Positions 76-23,073 of a stretch of 35,268 nucleotides of DNA are shown piece by piece (position 1 is the stretch's first letter; each line of letters starts with the position of its first letter). Below the pieces are notes generated by a model that searched no databases, had not been told where the DNA came from, and was given only the letters and a program-made list of their open reading frames with translations. Source of the DNA: an uncultured Candidatus Saccharibacteria bacterium (lineage in GTDB: Bacteria; Patescibacteriota; Minisyncoccia; Minisyncoccales; CAZBVF01); contig CAZKKG010000001.1 in the NCBI GenBank assembly GCA_964553275.1, forward strand, positions 102,993 to 138,260, in the 5' to 3' direction. The position numbers were made by a program, and so were the translations under genes.

Positions 76-3000
76 TTACTTTATCTCTCCTTTTAAGGTT
101 TGTTTTGCTTTTCTAATTTTCAGGACCTCTTCGGGAGAAGTGGTGACAAACTGATCTTCACCGTAAGACGCAACGACTTTCATTAAGACATGTTTTGAGC
201 CGGCAAAGAACAATCCGTCCCCTACAGGTGTTTCTATGAGGACGTTTTTTTCTCCGTCGGTCAAGTCAAAAGTCTTTTGAACGATTTCAATCATTGCAGG
301 ACTCTGCTTCATTAATATATGCAGGGCGGAATTGGTAATAATTGGTTTTCCGTAGTCAGATTTCATAAAGTCAATTACGTCTTGGGTTACGGTTGTAACT
401 CCGAGCCAATATTTCCTTGCCCTTTTTACGATTCCAAACAGGAAAGAAGCACCGTCTTCGTTTTTCATCATCCACCATGCTTCGTCTATTACCAAGATTC
501 TTTTTTTAAGCTCGCTTTTTACGGTGTTCCAAATATACCTAATAATGGTAAATATTGCTATTGGTCTTAATTCGTCCTCCATGTCCCGAATACCGAAAAC
601 TACCATCTTGTTTTTCATATCAATATTTGAGGGTTGGTTAAAGAAGTTGGCATAGGTTCCTTTGGTAAACTTTCTCAATCTGACCAAAAGAGAATCAGTG
701 CCCTCCATTGTTTCTAAAACGCTTTCTAAATCTTCCAGTAAGGGAGTGTTATTTTCCCATGTCTTAGGATCGGAAAATGGAGTGATGTCTTTGGAAGCGT
801 AAGTTTCCGCTAATGCCCTGTCCATGATGGCGTCTTCTTCGGGAGTCATTCCTTTAAGCATGATTCTCAAAAGTCCTACCAGGTTAATTACATTGGTCCT
901 GATGATATCTGCTGCTTCTTCATCCTCTCTGGGCAGGGGCAAATCAAAAGGATTAATGTGGTTTTTTGAAGACAGAGATATGCTGAAAAAAGACCCTCCC
1001 ACTGCATCTGACAGGAACTTGTATTCGTTCTCGGGGTCTATCACTATGCAGTCGACTCCAATCATCAAAGAGCGGAGGATTTCAAGCTTAATGGCATAAG
1101 AATTATGAACAAACATTCCTCCTCTACCGGCTAAAAATACTTCATTATCTACGGTTAAGTCATAAACATACTTTTCTTTTTTCCTTTTTATCTTTTTAAT
1201 CTTGGCAATTGGATCCCAGAATAAATCAGAATTTACTAAAGTTTTTAGTTGAGCTAATTTTTCTTCAATCTGGGAAATTTTGTTTATTAACACCTCTTGA
1301 TAATTCTGCTGAACATAATGAGCAGACCTCTGAATTAATTCATAACAGGTATTACTTTGAAACCCTTGATTTAAAGCACTTTCTAAATTAGGATTGAAAT
1401 ATTTCATCGTTAAATCCATCTCTCGGAAGCCGTTATGAATTGCTGTCTTGACTTCTGGCAAAGAGTAAGAATTTCCATTAATAATCTTTATTGCCTTAAA
1501 TACGTTAATTGACCTAGGTTTTACTTTCCTATTTTTTATTAACTGCCAACTGTGGTTTAAGGTTTGCCATAGAGCTCTATTTAACTTTTTGTCATTTTCC
1601 CCCAAATTTATAATCTCAGCTAATTCGGGCAATTCGGTTAAAATTTTAAAAGTAGAAGACAAATTTTTAAAATGCTGGATTTTTTCTTCAATTTTATTGA
1701 TTACTCTTTGGAGATGTTGGGGAGAAGGGTTTCTTTTTCCACTTTTCCAATCTACAATATCGTGAATCCCATAGAGTATTGGTGGAAAGATTTGCTGAAT
1801 TTCTGAAAAAATTGTTCCAATTTCCGGAATAAGGTCAACATTAGTATTCCCCTGTTTTTTTATGGTTTCTGAAAGTTGCTGCTTTTTCCTTTTTGAAATA
1901 AAATTAATATTTTTAGCGAACTTTCTAAGATTATCCTGGCCCGAAATAGTAATTTTCCAATACTCTCTTTTTCTTTTCCAATCAGAATTAGCAGCCCGTT
2001 TTCTTGTTTTTGAGATTCTTCCAATAATTCCAAAACAATAAAGAAGATAACTAAGTTCGGAAATTAACTGGGGAGATTTTGAAGTGGTTGAAATGTAAAT
2101 ATTTTTTTCAACCCCGCCATCTCCCTCAAAATATGCTGATAAATATTGGGCAATCTTTTCTCTTTTTGAACTAAAAATAAACGGCAGGACCTTCTTTTGG
2201 TTGGACTTCCCTTCTCCTCCCAAAGCTTTAATTATTTCAACAAAGACCCTTGAGGCAATAATGACTCCTCGATTCCCGTAATAAAAGGGAATTCCCAATT
2301 TTTTAAGGGAAAAATCGATATCCTGAAGAATCTCTCCGTCTTTATTGCTAACCATTATTGCTTTGTTTCCAATCATTCCTTCGGCACATATGTAGCCGGC
2401 TATTTTTAGGAGTTCAGCAGTTATTGGGAACTTAATGCCTAAAGAATATTTCTTCTTTCCGTTTTTAGATACGATTCTTAATTCTTTAAGTTTTTCATCA
2501 TTTGGCTTAATCGAAAGGAAATTCAAAATTTTCCAAAGATATTTTATTGGTATGACTCTACTGTCACGATATTTATAAAGATAACGATCAAGTTGACTAT
2601 CGATATTTGCATTTTTTAAAACTCTATAATTTTCTTGAATTAAATGTTCAGCTCCTTTAACATAAATATTTTTTGAATTTTTAAGCAATTTTAAGAGATT
2701 AAAAGATTTTAAAGGATTCTGGCTTTCAGGGATATTTCTAGGCAGGGGAATAAATTCTCCTTCTTTTATTTCAGAACTTTTAGCAGCCATCACTTTTCCG
2801 TTTCTAAGAATTAACATATTATGATCTCCGGTAGTAGTGATTTCTCTGCCGCTCCGAGTAGTAAATTTATAAAAGATATCCGGCGCTTTTTTTCTCATTG
2901 CTACCGTAACCTTGCTCCACCTTCCTTTAAGGTTTTCATCAAAACTGTAAACTTCGATTTCTGGATTAATTACCCCCTCCATTTCTTCATCGATAGGAAT

Positions 3001-17392: not shown

Positions 17393-17659
17393 TTATTTTT
17401 TAAGACCTGTTTTCTTTAATATATTAGCGTATCTTTTTGAGCTTTCTTTATTTAAGTAGTTGAGCAACTTTCTTCTCCTGGCTACCATTGCCAGCAATCC
17501 CCTTCTTGAGTGGATGTCTTTCGAGTGTTTTTTAAGATGAGACAACAATCTCTTAATTTCTTCGCAAAGCAAAGCAATCTGGACTTCGGGTGAGCCGGTG
17601 TCAAGCTTGTGCAATTCGTATTTTTTGATTATCTTTATTTTTTCTTCTGGTGTCAGCAT
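17393..17659 (-). CDS. rpsO: 30S ribosomal protein S15
   Basis: [12 protein letters not shown] and [12 protein letters not shown]. Confidence 0.98.
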
Positions 17660-17799
17660 AATTTGTGAAGATTAAATAAAAAATTAAACTTGAGAGATTT
17701 TTAATTTTGAAATATTTTAATCTTTTAGTCTTGTTTTTTATCAACTCTATCTTATCTTAATTTCTGAAAAATAGCAAATATCTAGCGTTAACAAATTAA

Positions 17800-17816
17800 C
17801 CAGGGTCAAACCCTGG
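17800..17816. repeat. Short palindrome CCAGGGT-CAA-ACCCTGG (REP-like, or tRNA terminator)
   Basis: Perfect 7-bp arms, with the same core as 5483-5501. Confidence 0.65.
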
Positions 17817-17848
17817 CATGTCCGAACTTGTCTTCTGCTCTTTGCTTG

Positions 17849-17921
17849 TGCCCCGCACAGGAGTCGAACCTGTAACCTTATCCTTAAGAGGGATCTGCTC
17901 TGCCAATTGAGCTAGCGGGGC
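17849..17921 (-). tRNA. tRNA-Lys(CTT), CCA not encoded
   Basis: Acceptor GCCCCGC/GCGGGGC, D arm GCTC/GAGC, anticodon loop CTCTTAA, T arm ACAGG-TTCGACT-CCTGT. Confidence 0.95.
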
Positions 17922-18666
17922 GTTTTACATCTTCAAGTAAATTTACTGGTCGGGGAACTTCTTTAAGTGATTTCCATTCTTTTTGAACAAATTCTGTTTG
18001 AAGTGTAATATCTTTTAAGGCAGCTTTTATCCATCCAAATACACGATGACGCATATCAGTTCCTTTTGGAACTACAATTCTTATTGTCCCGTAATAAAGA
18101 TTGTTTTTCTTATATCCTTTATTGGGAGGTTTTACGAAACTTTTACCAAAATTTTCAAGAGGAACACCAGTTAATTGCGACCAAAATTGTTTTATTTCCT
18201 GTTCATTTTGTTGAGGATAGATATTAAGTTTTGCTTTTAGGTCTTTCGTAGAAACTTTGAAAATTTGGCTAAACCATTTTACCATAAAAAGTATAAAATG
18301 GGGATCGGAATTTGTAACAGCAAAATGATTCGTTTTACTTCCTTCTGACCAATATAAAGCTGCTCCTAAAAAGCGATATGTTTCAAAAGAAAGAGGAAGA
18401 AGAATTTCTTTTTCGGCTTCTTCAATAATTTTCGCTATTTCTCTTTTTCTTCTTTCCTTTTGACTATTTGGACCTCTGGCTAAAAGTAAAACTTGTCTTG
18501 TATAAAGCCGTTCTCGGTCTTTAGGCCCTAAAGGAACATTTATACACCAAAGCCTAACTGTACTTTTCGCTATATCTAACTCTTTTCCTATTTCTCTATA
18601 ACTTAATCCTTTCTTCCGTAATTTAATTGCTTCCTTTTTCAATTTTGAGTATTTTGATTTATCCAT
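17884..18666 (-). CDS. HTH + single-motif LAGLIDADG-like putative endonuclease; the 3' end overlaps tRNA-Lys
   Basis: N-terminal HTH (GLSYREIGKELDIAKSTVRLW), LGAALYWSEG motif and TNSDP. ATG 18666 has an upstream AGGA, and the stop codon lies in the tRNA anticodon loop. Confidence 0.7.
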   Translation of the reverse strand: MDKSKYSKLKKEAIKLRKKGLSYREIGKELDIAKSTVRLWCINVPLGPKDRERLYTRQVLLLARGPNSQKERRKREIAKIIEEAEKEILLPLSFETYRFLGAALYWSEGSKTNHFAVTNSDPHFILFMVKWFSQIFKVSTKDLKAKLNIYPQQNEQEIKQFWSQLTGVPLENFGKSFVKPPNKGYKKNNLYYGTIRIVVPKGTDMRHRVFGWIKAALKDITLQTEFVQKEWKSLKEVPRPVNLLEDVKRPASSIGRADPS

Positions 18667-18686
18667 TTCATTTTTCCTATTTATTG

Positions 18687-18708
18687 CTGCCAATTGAGTT
18701 ATGGAGGC
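18687..18708 (-). pseudogene. Orphan tRNA 5' fragment GCCTCCATAACTCAATTGGCAG
   Basis: 18/22 identical to the first 22 nt of the downstream tRNA-Lys, with the last 12 identical; no matching 3' half seen. Confidence 0.75.
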
Positions 18709-18716
18709 AATACCTC

Positions 18717-19214
18717 TTACCTCATCAATATATCTATTTTATAGTTGTTTCTCCAATTATTATCAGCAATTTCTCTGGTCATTTCTCCGGCCGGTTCCCA
18801 TACGACATATGCAACATCAAAGGGTTCCGAGGAGATTATATCCTTATTGCTGAAAAAGGCAAGAGATATCTTGTCAATTTCCCAGTCTTGAGCGGTAATT
18901 TCTTCAATAAGCTTATCGGTAACTACTTCTATTCGGGAACGATCTACCTTGGGAATAATAACATCATAGGTCTTAATTCTGGCGTATGGGTGGTTAACTG
19001 AGCTTTCTCTCATGACTTCGTAATGTATCCCTTGGATTTTTCCCTCAATGACTTTCTCCGACTGAGGCATATTCTTGATAAAAGAATCGCTTAAAACTTC
19101 TGCAGAAGGCGGGGAAGTGCTTTTGTTTTTAATAATATAAAAAATAAAAGAGGATATAAAGAGAATAAGGGCAATGGATATTGAAACGAGTAAAATTGTA
19201 TTTTTTTTATACAT
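18717..19214 (-). CDS. Hypothetical membrane-anchored protein (165 aa)
   Basis: ATG 19214 follows the upstream gene stop; MYKKN plus a hydrophobic helix, then a soluble domain. Confidence 0.7.
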   Translation of the reverse strand: MYKKNTILLVSISIALILFISSFIFYIIKNKSTSPPSAEVLSDSFIKNMPQSEKVIEGKIQGIHYEVMRESSVNHPYARIKTYDVIIPKVDRSRIEVVTDKLIEEITAQDWEIDKISLAFFSNKDIISSEPFDVAYVVWEPAGEMTREIADNNWRNNYKIDILMR

Positions 19215-19227
19215 AAAATAGATATCT

Positions 19228-22200
19228 TTAGTGTCCTCCCGGACAGTAGCACTTACTGGCAGAACAATAGCAATCTTTTCCCGAAGTTGCCGAGCATTTG
19301 TTGCCGTTAGTATTCCTTGTGCAAGTGCAATCATTTTCTTCTACATCTAAAAGGGTGCAGAGGCCGGAACCATCGCAACTTGTATGATATTTCTTTTTAG
19401 TCCCATCTGCTTTTTCATCGCAACTTCCATGATAATCACAGTCAGAGCAAGAACTCCAGGAAATGTCAGTTTCACATCTTGCTCCTTCAGATTCATAATC
19501 TCCGTCAGTAGTACAGCAGGTAGAGAAAGGGTCGCACTCGCCTCCAAAAGACGATTCGTCTTTTACGCATTTTCCATCTTTACAATGTTGTGAATATAAC
19601 ATAGCCGAACCACATTCATCGCCATCCGTATCTTGGGTATCAGTGCAAGTTGTTGTTTCTTTATCGTCAACAGAACAAGAGCCAAAAGCGTCGCATACCT
19701 TATGATTTTTATATTGCGTACCGGTTATGCTTTCCTGGCAGTCACTGGCCTGATCCCAGTCAGTGATGCATGTTCCCCAGGAATAATCGGTAAAACATCG
19801 GGTTCCTTCGGGCTTGTATTGTCCGTCAGGGTCGCAGCAGGAAGTCCCGGGAGTACATACCATATCAGAATAGTGCTCGCATTGTCCGTTCTCGCAATAA
19901 CCCGCCCCTTCGTCACAAGGAATGCCATAAGTATTTCTGGTAATTACACAGTCCCGATATATGTCCCATGAGGAAATATTGCAGTTTCCCTGTTCATCAC
20001 AAGCCATTGTTTTCATGCTCTGGCTTCCAATTTTCATATTATCGCACTCGCTGGTATATTCTCCGCCCGTACATTCGCTCCAATCATATTCTTGGCAGAT
20101 TTTTGCGTATTCTTCATAATATCCTTCATCTGTGCAGCAGGCTGTTCCGGGTTCACATTCCTTCGGTGTATCGGGATTGCAGCATTCTCCCCACAAGGTG
20201 CTTGACATGTTGCATTCTCCATCAATGCAAGCATATTTAAGTGTTTTTTTGCAGTAATTATTGGGACAGTTAGGACAATAAATCGTACTGTGTTTACAGG
20301 TGGCGGTAAGCTCGCCGCACGCTTCTCCGTCAGTCTCTCTTACGCATACGCAGCTGTTGGGTTTTTCTTCATAACCTACGCTAGAACACTCTTTATTATT
20401 GCAAGTTTTAATTGGTCTAATAAAGCTTCCGTTCGATGTATAACTGCATTCGCCCTCGTTGTCCCACTCGCAGGATATGCATTGGTTGGTAAAATAGGCT
20501 CCGACTAAACATACTGTTCCATCAGAATCATAACAACATCCATCGCTGCAGCAATCGTCTTCGTCAGTACACTCGCAGCCTTCCGGGAAAACATTTTCAC
20601 AACTTGAACTGCCAGCATCGCAAAATTGGTTAAGGCTGCAGCTTTCTTCAACTTTCCATTCAGACCCTTCATCCCAATCGTCCCATGATCCGGTACATTC
20701 GGCGCTATCGCCGGAACAGTACTGGTTTTTAAAGTGATATCTAACGCCAACATCGCTTCCGGGATCTACTCCCCAAGGACAGCCGTATCCTTCCTTGTAA
20801 TCAAAGTCGCAAATCTCGTTGCTGTCGGAATAATAGCAATTATCTTCACAGCAATCACCGTAGGCGCAGTCGCAATCGTTGTTGGGTTCACAGAATTGGG
20901 TTGTGAGGCAGGATTTGTCTTTTGCCGAGCAAATATCTGTATTATTGCAGGATTTTTCAACTTCCCAGTTGGACCAAAGTCCCCAATCTCCCCATTCACC
21001 ATTGCAATACCCTGAACTCCCGGAGCAATATCTATCCTTTTTCCGAGCTCTTATTCCGAGATCATCTCCGCAATCTGTTCCCCAGGGACAGCCATAATCC
21101 GTTTCTATTTCAGCATCGCATTTTTGATTGGTATCCAAGAAGTAACATCCGTCGCAGCATGCACCGTTTATACATTCACACAGGGAAGATGCACAGAAGG
21201 AGCTGTATTCACATGCTCCAGCGCCTGATACGCAGTATTCTGTCGAGTCGCATGATTTATATGTTTTTTTATTCGACCAGTTTCCCCAATCCGTCCATAA
21301 GCCGGTACAGCTTGCACTCTCTCCGGAACAAAATTGATATTTGAGCCTGGTCTGCACCACAACACTGTTTCCGCAGTTATCAGAAGGATCGGTAGACGGA
21401 AAATCACCGCTGCAGCTCCAGAGATAGTCGGCTTCATATTCGCAAGCTTGAATTTTGGGATGATAATGGCATCCATCGCAGCACGGTCCGGAGGTACATT
21501 CGCAATCCGTTGCTGTTGTTTTATTTCCCATAATGGCAAAAATAGAAAAATGACTGGTACTAGCAGTCACTGTGTTATTTACCGTATCTACGGCACTTGG
21601 CAGTCCCACCCAGCGGGAAAGAATTTCATCGTAGTGATAAATAGCCAAAGTGTCTTCATCCAAACCGGCAATTTGGCTGTCGGTATAGGCCAAGGTAATA
21701 GTGGCTGGTATTGTAGTATCTTCTTGAGGAACAACCAAGTAAACATCATCTCCGATTATGCCTTGGCTTTCGGGAACGGAATTTACTTCATTCGCCACAA
21801 AATCGTCAGTAGATCTTATTGGAGTAACAATGAGATTGCTTTCTGCTGTAGTTTCTGTTTCACAATAGACTTTTATGGTGCCTATGGGAGGGTAATTAAA
21901 TCCGCTATATTGTGATCCGCCTGAATTATAATCTCCCGTAAATTCGCAATACCACCCTTCACTAACGTTGCTTAATTCATTTCCTCCCGTCAGCGTTGTA
22001 TTCTCTCCGGGAATGCATTCGCCGCCCGTGGCTATTTGGTCCGTATCTTCGCATTCAAGAGTTTCCTTTAATGGAATGCCGAAAGTGTTTGTATCGGAAT
22101 AAGTTTTTTCATAAGTTTCTGTTCCGTCGTCTTCAGGAGGAACATAATCAGGATCTGGTATGCAGTCAACGCTTATATTAACTTCAGGAGGGTAGAAAGT

Positions 22201-23073
22201 GTTCAAGTTTACGTTTTCGCTTTTTCCTCTAAAGGTACAAGTATATCCTTTACCATCATCGCTAATTCCCTGGCTAGTAACAAGCGTCTTGCTTTCATCT
22301 ACCGGGGTGCATTCTCCGCCTGTAGCTATTTCGTCTAACTCTTCACATTCTTTAGTTTTTGTTACTAAGTCGCCAGAAGTGTTTGGGTCGGAGTATGTTT
22401 CTTCTTCCTCCTCAATACAATCAACTGTTGTTTCACCATTAGCAGAAACTCCATCCGGGTCTATAGCCTCAAAGTCGCAATAATATCCCTTTCCATCACT
22501 AGTAATTCCTTCACTAGATACTTCACTATTTTCTCCCGGTTCACAACTTCCTCCCGTAGCTTCGTATCCCGAATCACATTCAGACGATACTTTAACACTA
22601 TCCTGACCTGTATCAGCAGTGCCGGAGGTTGTGTTTTGTTCTGGTCCTGGTTGTCCGCTACTGCCAGAAGTTTCGCATTCAATTTCCCACCATTTATACA
22701 AAGGACTGTCTGTTTGCGTCTTCACGATTCCGCTTCCAACTAAAAGTGCATCTATTATTATCCATGCACAGTAGATGATAATCAATCCGATAACCACCGA
22801 AGTAATGGTCGTATTTGCGCGCCTTAATGCCGCAGGACTTATTCCTCCGAGATAGTACAGCACGCCTCCGAATAAAAGCATGAGCGCCGCTAAGGGCGGT
22901 ACTATATTAATCATCACAAGCTTTACAATGTTGTTGAACATAACAAAGAGATGGCACAAAGTGCACTCTGGTTGTCCTTCTCCTCCGCAAGGCACCAGGC
23001 CTTCAGCATGGATTAAAAAGGGAACCATAAGAAGAAAAAGCATTGCAAAACCCGCTAAGATTGTTTTTTTCAT
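19228..23073 (-). CDS. Large surface protein: pilin-like N-terminus, ATGG-C repeats, HFS-motif domain and Cys-rich disintegrin-like repeats
   Basis: Signal peptide, GLVPCG..CTLCHLF and two TM helices (CPR pilin/VirB2-like); 3 C..ATGG.C repeats; TSHFSIFAI; about 7 CxC...CC repeats. Confidence 0.8.
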   Translation of the reverse strand: MKKTILAGFAMLFLLMVPFLIHAEGLVPCGGEGQPECTLCHLFVMFNNIVKLVMINIVPPLAALMLLFGGVLYYLGGISPAALRRANTTITSVVIGLIIIYCAWIIIDALLVGSGIVKTQTDSPLYKWWEIECETSGSSGQPGPEQNTTSGTADTGQDSVKVSSECDSGYEATGGSCEPGENSEVSSEGITSDGKGYYCDFEAIDPDGVSANGETTVDCIEEEEETYSDPNTSGDLVTKTKECEELDEIATGGECTPVDESKTLVTSQGISDDGKGYTCTFRGKSENVNLNTFYPPEVNISVDCIPDPDYVPPEDDGTETYEKTYSDTNTFGIPLKETLECEDTDQIATGGECIPGENTTLTGGNELSNVSEGWYCEFTGDYNSGGSQYSGFNYPPIGTIKVYCETETTAESNLIVTPIRSTDDFVANEVNSVPESQGIIGDDVYLVVPQEDTTIPATITLAYTDSQIAGLDEDTLAIYHYDEILSRWVGLPSAVDTVNNTVTASTSHFSIFAIMGNKTTATDCECTSGPCCDGCHYHPKIQACEYEADYLWSCSGDFPSTDPSDNCGNSVVVQTRLKYQFCSGESASCTGLWTDWGNWSNKKTYKSCDSTEYCVSGAGACEYSSFCASSLCECINGACCDGCYFLDTNQKCDAEIETDYGCPWGTDCGDDLGIRARKKDRYCSGSSGYCNGEWGDWGLWSNWEVEKSCNNTDICSAKDKSCLTTQFCEPNNDCDCAYGDCCEDNCYYSDSNEICDFDYKEGYGCPWGVDPGSDVGVRYHFKNQYCSGDSAECTGSWDDWDEGSEWKVEESCSLNQFCDAGSSSCENVFPEGCECTDEDDCCSDGCCYDSDGTVCLVGAYFTNQCISCEWDNEGECSYTSNGSFIRPIKTCNNKECSSVGYEEKPNSCVCVRETDGEACGELTATCKHSTIYCPNCPNNYCKKTLKYACIDGECNMSSTLWGECCNPDTPKECEPGTACCTDEGYYEEYAKICQEYDWSECTGGEYTSECDNMKIGSQSMKTMACDEQGNCNISSWDIYRDCVITRNTYGIPCDEGAGYCENGQCEHYSDMVCTPGTSCCDPDGQYKPEGTRCFTDYSWGTCITDWDQASDCQESITGTQYKNHKVCDAFGSCSVDDKETTTCTDTQDTDGDECGSAMLYSQHCKDGKCVKDESSFGGECDPFSTCCTTDGDYESEGARCETDISWSSCSDCDYHGSCDEKADGTKKKYHTSCDGSGLCTLLDVEENDCTCTRNTNGNKCSATSGKDCYCSASKCYCPGGH

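What the first reader, a model, noticed from the sequence alone, without database searches (positions are those of the whole stretch)
17849..18708. Candidate tRNA-homing cassette: orphan tRNA 5' end, HTH-LAGLIDADG gene, intact tRNA-Lys
Seen (minus strand): GCCTCCATAACTCAATTGGCAG, a tRNA acceptor 5' strand plus D loop that is 18/22 identical to the start of tRNA-Lys, breaks off abruptly. An HTH + LYWSEG (LAGLIDADG-like) ORF starts 20 nt later and reads into an intact tRNA-Lys, stopping in its anticodon loop. There is no integrase, and the duplicated piece is the tRNA 5' end, whereas integrative elements usually duplicate the 3' end. The fragment's acceptor and D strands do not pair fully with the present 3' half, so it comes from a different allele. 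Inference: a free-standing homing endonuclease that cuts in a tRNA D arm and installs a resistant replacement tRNA. tRNA 5' processing would also clip the mRNA and remove its stop codon, limiting expression.
Basis: partly seen in the sequence, partly recalled or inferred. Interest (0 to 1): 0.85.

Follow-up and report, generated by a model that had tools for sequence, protein, structure and literature searches.

The report
Mobile nuclease gene cassette replacing tRNA-Lys
A small selfish gene for a likely DNA-cutting enzyme sits between the leftover front end of a lysine-tRNA gene and a complete copy of it, and it belongs to a very large, unnamed family in ultra-small bacteria in which each branch is tied to one particular tRNA gene.

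Summary
A 5' relic of tRNA-Lys lies at 18687-18708(-), a 261-aa ORF at 17884-18669(-), and an intact tRNA-Lys(CUU) at 17848-17921(-). The ORF runs 38 nt into the tRNA and stops at the TAA of its anticodon loop.

This is one member of a large unannotated family in Patescibacteria (CPR): 1466 clusters at E<=1e-10. In 26 of 30 relatives' loci the gene abuts the 5' end of a same-strand tRNA gene, and protein clades follow tRNA identity.

Twenty of 23 syntenic tRNA-Lys-rpsO sites in related genomes are empty. Against the closest relative, 90% DNA identity runs from the first base of the relic to the tRNA's end, while rpsO next door is 74%. So relic, gene and tRNA move as one cassette.

- Relics mostly end at tRNA position ~32/33, at the anticodon loop and not in the D arm.
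- No "resistant" allele signature separates linked from empty tRNAs.
- Reading into the tRNA follows from a local frame difference.

The LAGLIDADG assignment is partial. Profile matches cover half the domain and a homodimer is predicted, but Foldseek gave no LAGLIDADG hit. No nuclease activity has been shown.

The scan met this family twice before on other DNA.

The parts
17844..18708 (-). The whole mobile cassette: tRNA-Lys 5' relic, leader, nuclease-like gene and intact tRNA-Lys
   Evidence: blastn against L031 gives 90.0% identity over 867 nt, running exactly 18708..17844. Flanking rpsO is 74.2% and the upstream gene has no match. The same boundaries appear in the pairs L071/L077 and L037/L076.
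18679..18708 (-). Relic of the 5' part of a tRNA-Lys gene. The clear 22-mer is 18687-18708. The decayed continuation CAATAAAT is 18679-18686, reaching about tRNA position 32.
   Evidence: 18 of 22 identity to the intact tRNA, z 6.0. Its centre TCCATAACTCAAT is identical to the genome's own tRNA-Lys(TTT). It starts 8 nt after the stop of the upstream gene, where empty relatives have the tRNA itself. Aligned with 19 other relics.
18670..18678 (-). A-rich leader between the relic and the start codon
   Evidence: The same A-rich junction (..CT|AAATAAAAAATG) follows the relic in sister loci. No promoter-like site lies between the relic and the ATG.
17884..18669 (-). 261-aa ORF: HTH, long helix and a LAGLIDADG-like domain. 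The last 12 codons and the stop lie inside the tRNA gene.
   Evidence: Homologues number 677 at E<=1e-3 in the 90%-clustered set and 3455 / 1466 / 36 clusters at E<=1e-3 / 1e-10 / 1e-30. The AF2 model has pLDDT 92.4.
18544..18660 (-). N-terminal three-helix HTH (residues 4-42)
   Evidence: Pfam HTH_23, E 1.9e-5, residues 10-41. 67 of 82 family members hit HTH_23. Helices 4-19, 24-31 and 35-42 in the model.
17956..18411 (-). Nuclease-like domain (residues 87-238), with the motif LYWSEGSK and an acidic residue, E109, that is invariant in A1 (codon 18343-18345)
   Evidence: E109 is invariant in 82 sequences. In A2 that column is E in 90% or more of the 61 rows; L030 reads D there. The profile hits I-DmoI motif 2 at E 0.003 and 0.036. 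hhalign against 23 true LAGLIDADG_3 domains gives probability 64%, E 6.5e-5. The domain model has pLDDT 93.0. Homodimer score 0.69 against a best control of 0.00. Foldseek found no LAGLIDADG structure.
17848..17921 (-). Intact tRNA-Lys(CUU) that is part of the cassette
   Evidence: ARAGORN; Rfam RF00005 at 64.8 bits.
17799..17817 (-). Terminator-like hairpin 31 nt after the tRNA, outside the cassette
   Evidence: Consensus scan only: 8 pairs followed by a T-rich tail. 2 such sites found against 1.4 expected.
18717..19334 (-). Left flank: 205-aa ORF with no family match. Its stop lies 8 nt before the relic.
   Evidence: RNA-library contigs run from this gene across the relic into the ORF.
17393..17659 (-). 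Right flank: rpsO (ribosomal protein S15), the syntenic anchor used to find empty sites
   Evidence: Pfam Ribosomal_S15, E 3.5e-30. Found in 57 of 61 genomes searched.

Best explanation
The region is an ~865-bp selfish cassette made of three parts: a 5' relic of tRNA-Lys (positions 1 to ~32), a free-standing homing-endonuclease-like gene, and a complete tRNA-Lys(CUU) gene. The encoded protein has an N-terminal HTH and one LAGLIDADG-like domain and is predicted to act as a homodimer.

Proposed mechanism (inferred, not shown):
1. The enzyme cuts an uninterrupted tRNA-Lys(CUU) gene in or next to the anticodon loop.
2. The break is repaired from a cassette-bearing copy.
3. The two homology arms are the tRNA gene itself. 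The recipient's positions 1-33 pair with the relic, and its 3' part pairs with the cassette's whole tRNA.
4. The gene is copied in together with a working tRNA-Lys, and the recipient's own 5' part is left or converted as the relic.

Because both arms are tRNA sequence, the cassette would need no flanking synteny and could move between distant lineages. The gene has no promoter of its own here. It is probably transcribed from upstream, with the relic as its leader and the tRNA as its 3' end. Other clades of the family do the same next to other tRNA genes, usually in the spacer between two tRNAs of an array.
For: **Tie to tRNA genes**
- In 26 of 30 loci from 61 related genomes, the homologue ends within -117..+46 nt of a same-strand tRNA start, with more than 10 tRNA identities.
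- The baseline in the own genome is 11 of 405 long open frames.
- All 19 genome loci at >=45% identity precede tRNA-Lys(CTT), and 33 of 38 metagenome loci do. Of the other five, 3 are contig ends, 1 precedes Arg(tcg) and 1 (30% identity) precedes Ile(tat).

**Clades follow tRNA identity**
- Quick tree of 67 rows: a Lys clade of 47 rows with support 99 (43 Lys, 3 contig ends, 1 Arg), plus Met 5, Ala 4, Gly-gcc 2 and Ile 2.
- The tree needs 15 label changes against a shuffled mean of 23.6; 0 of 200 shuffles were as low.

**Sporadic presence at a conserved site**
- Of 23 rpsO-linked tRNA-Lys(CTT) sites, 3 are occupied and 20 are empty (with for absence of the gene there).

**The cassette moves as a unit**
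- 90.0% DNA identity to L031 runs from relic base 1 to 4 nt past the tRNA. rpsO is 74.2% and nothing upstream matches.
- The same edges appear in two other pairs.

**Common relic end**
- By my own reading of the 20 relics listed, about 12-14 run to tRNA position ~32/33 and are then followed by an A-rich leader and the ATG.

**Decay typical of selfish genes**
- About 11 of 49 matches carry in-frame stops or are fragments, and many genomes hold several copies.

**Nuclease-like features**
- An acidic residue is kept at the end of the motif helix: E109 is invariant in the 82 rows of A1, and in A2 the column is E in 90% or more of 61 rows, with D in L030.
- The profile matches I-DmoI and true LAGLIDADG_3 domains of relatives.
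- The predicted homodimer scores 0.69 against a best control of 0.00. That mark was reached by 20 of 30 solved pairs of one chain and 1 of 23 proteins solved as single chains. The three runs agree in at least 90% of contacts and partner pLDDT is at least 83.
- The interface includes symmetric contacts of the motif helix: 11-11, 15-15 and 18-18.

**Weak hint of co-transcription**
- Contigs from RNA libraries of three studies bridge the upstream gene, the relic and the ORF. DNA carry-over in those libraries is not excluded.
Against: - No nuclease activity, cut site or homing event is shown. All mobility evidence is comparative.
- Foldseek found no LAGLIDADG structure with either confident model, whole or domain-only. 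The best hits are OmpA-like with TM 0.35-0.4.
- No Pfam, NCBIfam or PHROG nuclease family matches.
- Profile support covers only helix 1, the first two strands and helix 2, and it is modest (probability 64%).
- The intact tRNA in the cassette still carries any target that lies inside the tRNA. No allele signature explains self-immunity.
- Most non-Lys clades show no relic: 1 clear case (L016) among the non-Lys loci with a downstream tRNA. The 'tRNA halves as arms' model is therefore shown only for the Lys clade.
- The relic region is less conserved between the window and L031 than the ORF is, so how much of it is donor and how much is recipient is open.
- The loci for the Lys clade were recruited by similarity to the query, so the counts are not an unbiased sample.
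Confidence: 0.72

Rival explanations
1. The cassette is mobile, but the protein is not a LAGLIDADG-type homing nuclease. It could be a DNA-binding protein or another kind of enzyme, and the cassette would spread by ordinary recombination through its tRNA repeats after DNA uptake.
For: Foldseek retrieves no LAGLIDADG structure for two models with pLDDT 92-93. No curated nuclease family matches. A conserved helix-bearing insertion sits between strands 3 and 4. The self-immunity problem disappears if nothing is cut.
Against: An E/D-G motif is kept at the end of the first domain helix: E109 is invariant in A1, and E is in 90% or more of A2 rows with D in L030. The only nuclease matches of two profiles are I-DmoI. 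hhalign against true LAGLIDADG_3 domains gives E 6.5e-5 with EG aligned on DG. The predicted dimer packs the motif helices on each other. Arms of 33 and ~43 nt are short for unaided recombination (general knowledge). The strict tie between clade and tRNA identity needs a sequence-specific step.
Confidence: 0.14
2. It is a domesticated host gene, for example a WhiA-like regulator built from a dead LAGLIDADG domain plus an HTH, that controls or accompanies tRNA transcription and is inherited vertically with frequent loss.
For: The HTH is the only curated domain. The gene is co-oriented and tightly packed with tRNA genes everywhere. The gene is intact in many lineages, and RNA-library contigs cover it. 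The WhiA comparison is from recall.
Against: It is present at only 3 of 23 syntenic sites. Copies are multiple, and about 11 of 49 matches are broken. The cassette is 90% identical where rpsO is 74%. The putative catalytic acid is kept. A relic of a displaced tRNA has no role in a regulator model.
Confidence: 0.08
3. It is what remains of something else that targets tRNA genes: an integrase-type island that lost its integrase, or a tRNA intron (group I or archaeal type) carrying an endonuclease gene.
For: tRNA genes are classic integration sites. The relic ends in the anticodon-loop region, where tRNA introns sit, and the best structural-sequence match, I-DmoI, is intron-encoded. The last two points are general knowledge.
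Against: The unit is only ~865 bp with the same edges in many lineages, and no integrase is present. The duplicated piece is the 5' end, not the 3' end. Rfam finds no intron between the relic and the tRNA, even at E<=1. The downstream tRNA is complete by itself. The relic does not pair with its 3' half (read).
Confidence: 0.03

Closest known systems
Phage T4 SegB, a free-standing GIY-YIG homing endonuclease in the T4 tRNA gene cluster (PMC2330249; abstract read)
   Same: Both are free-standing endonuclease genes placed among tRNA genes. SegB's recognition site is tRNA-gene sequence, and inheritance carries the neighbouring tRNA genes along and replaces the recipient's markers.
   Different: SegB belongs to a different nuclease family (GIY-YIG, against LAGLIDADG-like plus HTH) and is in a phage, not a cell. 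It recognises the conserved T-psi-C motif shared by many tRNAs, whereas here each clade keeps to one tRNA identity. T4 has no 5' tRNA relic and no duplicated target.
Homodimeric single-motif LAGLIDADG homing endonucleases such as I-CreI, and I-DmoI (I-CreI features are from recall; the I-DmoI match is)
   Same: Both have a motif helix ending in an acidic residue followed by Gly, then two strands and a helix. The predicted two-fold dimer goes through the motif helices. The size is that of one domain.
   Different: Those enzymes are encoded inside introns, so insertion destroys their target. This gene is free-standing with an intact target copy beside it. It also carries an N-terminal HTH, a 40-residue helix and a conserved insertion between strands 3 and 4. 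Foldseek did not match it to those structures.
LAGLIDADG genes in introns and spacers of CPR rRNA operons (PMC8172020 and PMC7143001; passages read)
   Same: The host group is the same. [quoted passage not shown]
   Different: Those reports concern rRNA introns or mention spacer genes only in passing. They do not describe a tRNA-specific family, the relic or the cassette.
Integrase-borne genomic islands in tRNA genes (recalled)
   Same: The target is a tRNA gene. The element restores a working tRNA and leaves a partial duplicate.
   Different: Islands duplicate the 3' end, carry an integrase and are kilobases long. This unit duplicates the 5' end, has no integrase and is ~865 bp.

Membership tests
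LAGLIDADG homing endonucleases | LAGLIDADG motif helix ending in a conserved catalytic Asp or Glu, followed by Gly | tested here: met
   The motif is LYWSEGSK. E109 and Y106 are invariant and G110 is in >=90% of 82 sequences. In A2 that column is E in 90% or more of 61 rows, and L030 has D. EG aligns on the DG of 23 true LAGLIDADG_3 domains and on the EG of I-DmoI motif 2.
LAGLIDADG homing endonucleases | Significant sequence match to curated family models (Pfam LAGLIDADG_1, _2, _3) | tested here: not met
   No LAGLIDADG family appears for the window protein at E<=1 or among the 25 most frequent of the 84 families matched by the 82 members at E<=0.1; the other 59 families were not shown. Only profile-level matches exist: I-DmoI at E 0.003 and 0.036, and hhalign at probability 64%, E 6.5e-5 over 50 columns.
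LAGLIDADG homing endonucleases | alpha-beta-beta-alpha-beta-beta-alpha fold resembling solved members | tested here: inconclusive
LAGLIDADG homing endonucleases | Single-motif members act as homodimers through the motif helices | tested here: met
   This is prediction only: score 0.69 against a best control of 0.00, a mark reached by 20 of 30 solved pairs of one chain and 1 of 23 single chains. The runs agree in >=90% of contacts and pLDDT is >=83. Symmetric contacts 11-11, 15-15 and 18-18 lie in the motif helix. The pass may reflect likeness to solved dimers.
LAGLIDADG homing endonucleases | Site-specific double-strand cleavage with 4-nt 3' overhangs | not testable with these tools
   This needs an enzyme assay.
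Free-standing homing endonuclease genes (intron-less homing) | Sporadic presence at one conserved genomic site, with empty alleles in relatives | tested here: met
   3 occupied and 20 empty among 23 tRNA-Lys(CTT)-rpsO sites.
Free-standing homing endonuclease genes (intron-less homing) | The gene and adjacent markers are transferred together (co-conversion), seen as an island of high similarity | tested here: met
   90.0% over the 867-nt cassette, against 74.2% for rpsO and no match upstream. The edges repeat in two other pairs.
Free-standing homing endonuclease genes (intron-less homing) | The carrier's own target is protected by sequence differences | tested here: not met
   No column differs between 44 linked and 19 empty tRNA-Lys alleles at p<0.01, and the anticodon loop CTCTTAA is invariant in both sets. 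Pair-specific co-variation was not tested.
Integrase-type tRNA-targeting islands | Integrase gene and a duplicated tRNA 3' end | tested here: not met
   No integrase lies among the neighbours. The duplicate is the 5' end.
tRNA introns carrying an endonuclease gene | An intron RNA fold and exons that together make one tRNA | tested here: not met
   Rfam at E<=1 finds only the tRNA. The downstream tRNA is complete. The relic pairs at only 5 of 7 acceptor positions with the 3' strand (read).

The most novel reading that the evidence does not exclude
This would be a self-sufficient 'tRNA-swap' homing cassette. A homodimeric LAGLIDADG-like enzyme would recognise the naturally near-palindromic anticodon arm of one tRNA gene and cut at the anticodon, with the relic ending at 33/34. 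Repair would use the two halves of the tRNA gene itself as the only homology arms. The cassette could therefore enter any genome that has that tRNA, whatever the neighbouring genes, and overwrite the host's tRNA with its own. With a clade for each tRNA identity, the family would be a main driver of tRNA-gene turnover and of tRNA array structure in Patescibacteria. It would also be a natural library of nucleases with tRNA-gene specificities.
Probability: 0.35. Interest if true: 0.82.

Novelty: new variant of a known kind. Interest (0 to 1): 0.68.

Why it matters
- If the mechanism holds, this is a very large protein family with no match in the curated libraries searched (1466 clusters at E<=1e-10) that targets tRNA genes one identity at a time. 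Free-standing homing genes of that kind are otherwise known mainly from phage T4's tRNA cluster.
- It would explain three things in ultra-small bacteria: orphan tRNA pieces, tandem tRNA pseudogenes, and protein genes wedged into tRNA arrays and rRNA-operon spacers.
- It would show a way for a homing gene to escape dependence on flanking synteny, by carrying both halves of its target as arms.
- It raises a clear open problem: how the linked, apparently identical tRNA gene escapes cutting.
- The enzymes could also serve as new site-specific nucleases.
- Three full-text searches found no paper describing this. I read only their listings, plus passages of two papers.

Tried and rejected
- **Foldseek against viral structures** gave nothing usable.
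- **ESM Atlas search on the domain** gave no usable hit and holds no model.
- **PHROGs scan of 61 domain sequences** gave only unnamed families, each hit by 1-2 members.
- **Phage carriage.** No relative was found in IMG/VR by pattern scan or in 50,697 phage records by tblastn. This covers only those collections and only close relatives. The first IMG/VR attempt, with alignment A1, failed because no stretch was conserved enough.
- **BLAST for tRNA-Lys(CTT) in the two same-family genomes and G005** returned tRNA-Lys(TTT) or tRNA-Arg. G001's rpsO locus has no tRNA. So the nearest relatives gave no direct empty site, and order-level relatives were used instead.
- **RNA-library contigs** cover most of the cassette at low depth. 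They leave gaps around the tRNA at different places in different runs. They show no start, end or strand, so they say nothing about RNase P clipping of the mRNA.
- **A displaced 3' half of the old tRNA downstream of the intact tRNA** was looked for by eye. No convincing T-arm or acceptor remnant was seen.
- **An intron reading** was considered and rejected.
- **The 'resistant allele' idea** was tested and not supported.
- **The careful tree** did not finish in 300 s. The quick tree is reported.
Full report
**What is there.** The following lie on the minus strand.
- A complete tRNA-Lys(CTT) is at 17848-17921 (ARAGORN; Rfam tRNA 64.8 bits).
- A 261-aa ORF runs from the ATG at 18669 to the stop at 17884-17886.
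- Eighteen nt upstream of the ATG is the 22-mer GCCTCCATAACTCAATTGGCAG (18708-18687). It matches the first 22 bases of the tRNA at 18 positions, 6.0 sd above shuffles.
- Its centre, TCCATAACTCAAT, is identical to the genome's own tRNA-Lys(TTT), so it is clearly a lysine-tRNA 5' end.
- The ORF overlaps the tRNA by 38 nt and stops at the TAA of the anticodon loop.
- The host is a 486-kb, 24-contig genome. Its relatives carry names such as Nealsonbacteria and Patescibacteria.
- The gene is single-copy in this genome.
- No integrase lies nearby. The neighbours are pnp, an NYN-domain gene, rpsO, a 205-aa orphan ORF, a 1281-aa pilin-like protein and tRNA-Arg(tcg).

**The protein.**
- Curated libraries see only an N-terminal HTH (HTH_23, E 1.9e-5). 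NCBIfam gives nothing above its cut-offs. Sixty-seven of 82 relatives hit HTH_23, and no LAGLIDADG family is among the 25 most frequent of the 84 families those relatives match; the other 59 were not shown.
- The family is very large: 677 proteins at E<=1e-3 in the 90%-clustered set, and 3455, 1466 and 36 clusters at E<=1e-3, 1e-10 and 1e-30 in the 50% representatives. Some weak hits may be HTH only.
- In an 82-sequence alignment, R18, W41, Y106, E109, W163 and G194 are invariant. The motif LYW(A/S)EGSK is the best-conserved stretch.
- A profile of that alignment hits I-DmoI and no other nuclease in the PDB sequence set. The match covers I-DmoI's second LAGLIDADG motif, the next two strands and a helix, at E 0.003. 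A domain-only profile gives E 0.036.
- I built a control profile from 23 genuine LAGLIDADG_3 domains, mostly intein-borne, found in the same set of relatives. hhalign aligns 50 columns with the family's EG on their DG, at probability 64% and E 6.5e-5.
- AlphaFold models are confident: pLDDT 92.4 for the whole protein and 93.0 for residues 87-238. They show a three-helix HTH, a 40-residue helix, and then helix, hairpin, helix, strand, extra helix, strand, helix, helix.
- Foldseek found no LAGLIDADG structure for either model. The best matches are OmpA-like domains at TM 0.35-0.4, and nothing useful came from viral structures.
- A two-copy prediction of the domain passed its controls. The score was 0.69 against a best control of 0.00. 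That mark was reached by 20 of 30 solved pairs of one chain and 1 of 23 single chains. The runs agree in at least 90% of contacts and pLDDT is at least 83.
- The interface has symmetric contacts of the motif helix (11-11, 15-15, 18-18), as expected of single-motif LAGLIDADG dimers. The pass may reflect likeness to solved dimers.
- My reading is that this is a divergent LAGLIDADG-derived domain with its catalytic acid kept. That is not proven.

**The tie to tRNA genes.**
- In 61 related genomes, 27 have a match, often several copies, and about 11 of 49 matches carry in-frame stops or are fragments.
- In 26 of the 30 loci fetched, the gene ends directly at a same-strand tRNA gene. The identities include Lys-ctt, Met-cat, Gly-tcc, Gly-gcc, Ala-ggc, Val-gac, Arg-tct, Arg-tcg, Arg-gcg, Ile-tat, Ile-gat, Thr-ggt and Gln-ttg. 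The gene often lies between two tRNAs of an array.
- The four exceptions are two loci with no tRNA found (L005 and L012, which form a clade of their own), one contig end (L026) and one HTH-only match (L027).
- In the own genome, only 11 of 405 long open frames have such a neighbour, this gene included.
- The own genome has tRNA-Phe and tRNA-Gly(gcc) 15 nt apart. That is an empty version of the Phe|gene|Gly loci L015 and L029.
- All 19 genome-collection loci at >=45% identity precede tRNA-Lys(CTT). The one at 30% precedes tRNA-Ile(tat).
- Of 38 metagenome loci, 33 precede tRNA-Lys(CTT), 1 precedes tRNA-Arg(tcg) with tRNA-Lys just upstream (L091), 1 precedes Ile(tat) and 3 end at the contig edge. 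Several of these loci are near-duplicates of one another.
- A quick maximum-likelihood tree of 67 rows groups the proteins by downstream tRNA. I left out rows with internal stops, rows shorter than 180 aa and exact duplicates. The careful search did not finish.
- The groups are a Lys clade of 47 rows with support 99, Met 5 (98), Ala 4 (98), Gly-gcc 2 (99) and Ile 2 (99). The tree needs 15 label changes against a shuffled mean of 23.6; 0 of 200 shuffles were as low. Near-copies, and recruitment of loci by similarity to the query, inflate this clustering.

**Where the ORF ends.**
- Across clades, the stop falls in one of three places: 0-2 nt before the tRNA, at the tRNA's own T8-A9-G10 (offset -10, the commonest), or, for Lys, at U36-A37-A38 (offset -38).
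- L002 and L003 stop 1-2 nt before the tRNA. The sister locus L031 stops at T8-A9-G10.
- The window is in a different frame over the last codons, so it runs on to the anticodon loop. The -38 ending recurs in L038 and L040.
- Reading into the tRNA therefore follows from extreme packing and is not a conserved device.

**Empty sites.**
- I used rpsO as an anchor. It is found in 57 of 61 genomes, and 30 loci were fetched.
- Twenty-three of those loci have tRNA-Lys(CTT) just upstream of rpsO. It is usually preceded by a small pilin-like gene and tRNA-Arg(tcg), 410-732 nt away.
- Three sites are occupied: the window, G027 and G031. Twenty have no homologue there (checked).
- In the empty sites, the tRNA begins 0-15 nt after the upstream gene's stop. 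In the window, the relic begins 8 nt after the stop of the 205-aa ORF. In L077 it begins 6 nt after tRNA-Arg. So the relic occupies the native tRNA position.
- One empty allele (G030) starts GCCTCCG and matches the window's relic at 20 of 22. G031's intact tRNA matches it at 21 of 22.

**The relic.**
- Among 44 unique Lys-clade loci with enough upstream sequence, 20 have a recognisable tRNA-Lys 5' relic. Five have the ORF directly after tRNA-Arg(tcg) with no relic. The rest, mostly the more distant subclade, have no clear relic but do have their own TGnTATAAT-GGAGG promoter and ribosome site.
- Written against tRNA numbering by eye, about 12-14 of the 20 relics continue through the D arm and the 5' strand of the anticodon stem to C32-U33. 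They then switch to an A-rich leader (..CT|AAATAAAAAATG).
- A few relics are shorter (16-18 nt). One (L034) runs to position ~39.
- The window's 22-mer is followed by CAATAAAT. Set against L031's ..AAGTAGTAAAT, this is the same continuation with a 2-nt deletion.
- The common break is thus at the anticodon loop and not in the D arm.
- Relic and intact tRNA are different alleles in every locus. The two allele types are swapped between the window and L003, so neither is 'the resistant one'.
- Comparing 44 linked with 19 empty tRNA-Lys(CTT) sequences column by column gives no difference at p<0.01. The anticodon loop is invariant in both sets.

**The unit that moves.**
- blastn of the window region against L031, whose protein is 89% identical, gives 90.0% identity over 867 nt. 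The match runs from 18708, the first base of the relic, to 17844, 4 nt past the tRNA.
- rpsO next door is 74.2% identical, tRNA-Arg is 74%, and the upstream gene has no match.
- Two other pairs from different contexts (L071/L077 at 81%, L037/L076 at 80%) show the same edges. A pair in which one partner lacks the relic (L031/L067) starts at the ORF.
- A selfish gene that is much more similar than a ribosomal protein gene beside it, with sharp edges at tRNA position 1 of the relic and the tRNA's 3' end, is what transfer of the whole cassette would leave.

**How it most likely works** (inference).
- The enzyme cuts an uninterrupted tRNA-Lys(CUU) gene near the anticodon, and repair copies the cassette.
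- The left arm is tRNA 1-33, pairing with the relic. The right arm is the rest of the tRNA, pairing with the cassette's own tRNA.
- This accounts for the edges, for the relic at the native position, for replacement of the host allele, and for independence from flanking genes.
- The direct repeat of relic and tRNA 5' part would also allow precise loss.
- A near-palindromic anticodon arm would suit a homodimer, but that is speculation.
- No promoter-like site lies between the relic and the ATG. Contigs from RNA libraries of three studies run from the upstream gene across the relic into the ORF, and one spans the ORF end and the tRNA. These are contigs, and DNA carry-over is possible. This fits transcription from upstream, with the tRNA cut out of the 3' end.
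- Whether RNase P then leaves a stop-less mRNA is untested.
- The main unexplained point is why the linked intact tRNA is not itself a target.

**Comparison with the known, and novelty.**
- The closest described system is phage T4 SegB. It is a free-standing GIY-YIG endonuclease in a tRNA cluster that recognises tRNA-gene sequence and drags neighbouring tRNA genes along (PMC2330249; abstract read).
- The differences are the nuclease family, a cellular rather than a phage host, one tRNA identity per clade, and the relic-plus-whole-tRNA architecture.
- CPR papers mention LAGLIDADG genes in rRNA introns and protein genes beside spacer tRNAs (PMC8172020 and PMC7143001; passages read). In the passages I read, they do not describe this family.
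- Three full-text searches listed nothing on it. I read only the listings. Supplements were closed and could hold annotations I did not see.
- The scan's own earlier notes report the same family and the same reading on two other genomes. I used them as leads only and re-derived every claim here.
- I class the finding as a new variant of a known kind, namely free-standing homing genes.

Noticed in passing
window 1903-2157 (-), inside an open frame of 1297 aa: There is a genuine LAGLIDADG_3 domain (54.6 bits, E 4.8e-15) within a very long ORF, most likely an intein. The own genome has 7 such matches.
   Followed up: no
window 19228-23073 (-): This is a 1281-aa Cys-rich protein whose N-terminus matches the T4SS_pilin family (E 5.4e-7). 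At the same place, between tRNA-Arg(tcg) and tRNA-Lys, the relative read (G016, L124) has only a ~190-aa pilin-like gene, and Arg-to-Lys gaps of 410-732 nt in 15 other relatives leave room for only a small gene. The gene has therefore grown about six-fold here, or has been joined by a second ORF (the 205-aa one).
   Followed up: partly
L124 (G016) about 1300-1455: A nearly full but broken tRNA-Lys(CTT) pseudogene lies 6 nt before an intact tRNA-Lys(CTT), with no endonuclease gene between them. The pseudogene covers acceptor 5' strand, D arm, anticodon arm and T-stem 5' strand, and then breaks off. It may be a scar of a lost cassette or another route of tRNA replacement.
   Followed up: partly
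L016 (G050) about 1376-1450 in the oriented locus: An Ala-clade member has a whole, non-functional tRNA-Ala-like sequence upstream of the ORF. The pseudo-tRNA's anticodon loop reads AAATAAT, similar to the A-rich junction that follows the Lys relics. Its 3' end does not pair with its 5' end.
   Followed up: no
L091 (metagenome locus): This Lys-clade protein (56% identity) sits between tRNA-Lys(ctt) upstream and tRNA-Arg(tcg) downstream. It is the only clade member found before a different tRNA.
   Followed up: no
L038, L039, L042, L048, L086, L087: 20-40 nt upstream of the ORF: The distant Lys subclade shares a conserved leader..AGTTCGGCTGTCATGTGTGATATAATTGGAGGT.., with an extended -10 box and a Shine-Dalgarno sequence. 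Its first part resembles the end of the relic in L046 (GCAGTTGCC), so it may be a further-decayed relic.
   Followed up: no
G001, G002 (same family) and G005: BLAST with the window's tRNA-Lys(CTT) returned only tRNA-Lys(TTT) or tRNA-Arg in these genomes, and G001's rpsO locus has no tRNA. The closest relatives may lack a tRNA-Lys(CUU) gene or keep it elsewhere.
   Followed up: partly
L005 (G041) and L012 (G001): These two homologues form their own clade (support 99) and have no tRNA detected within 1.5 kb downstream. This is the one branch of the family seen without a tRNA neighbour.
   Followed up: no
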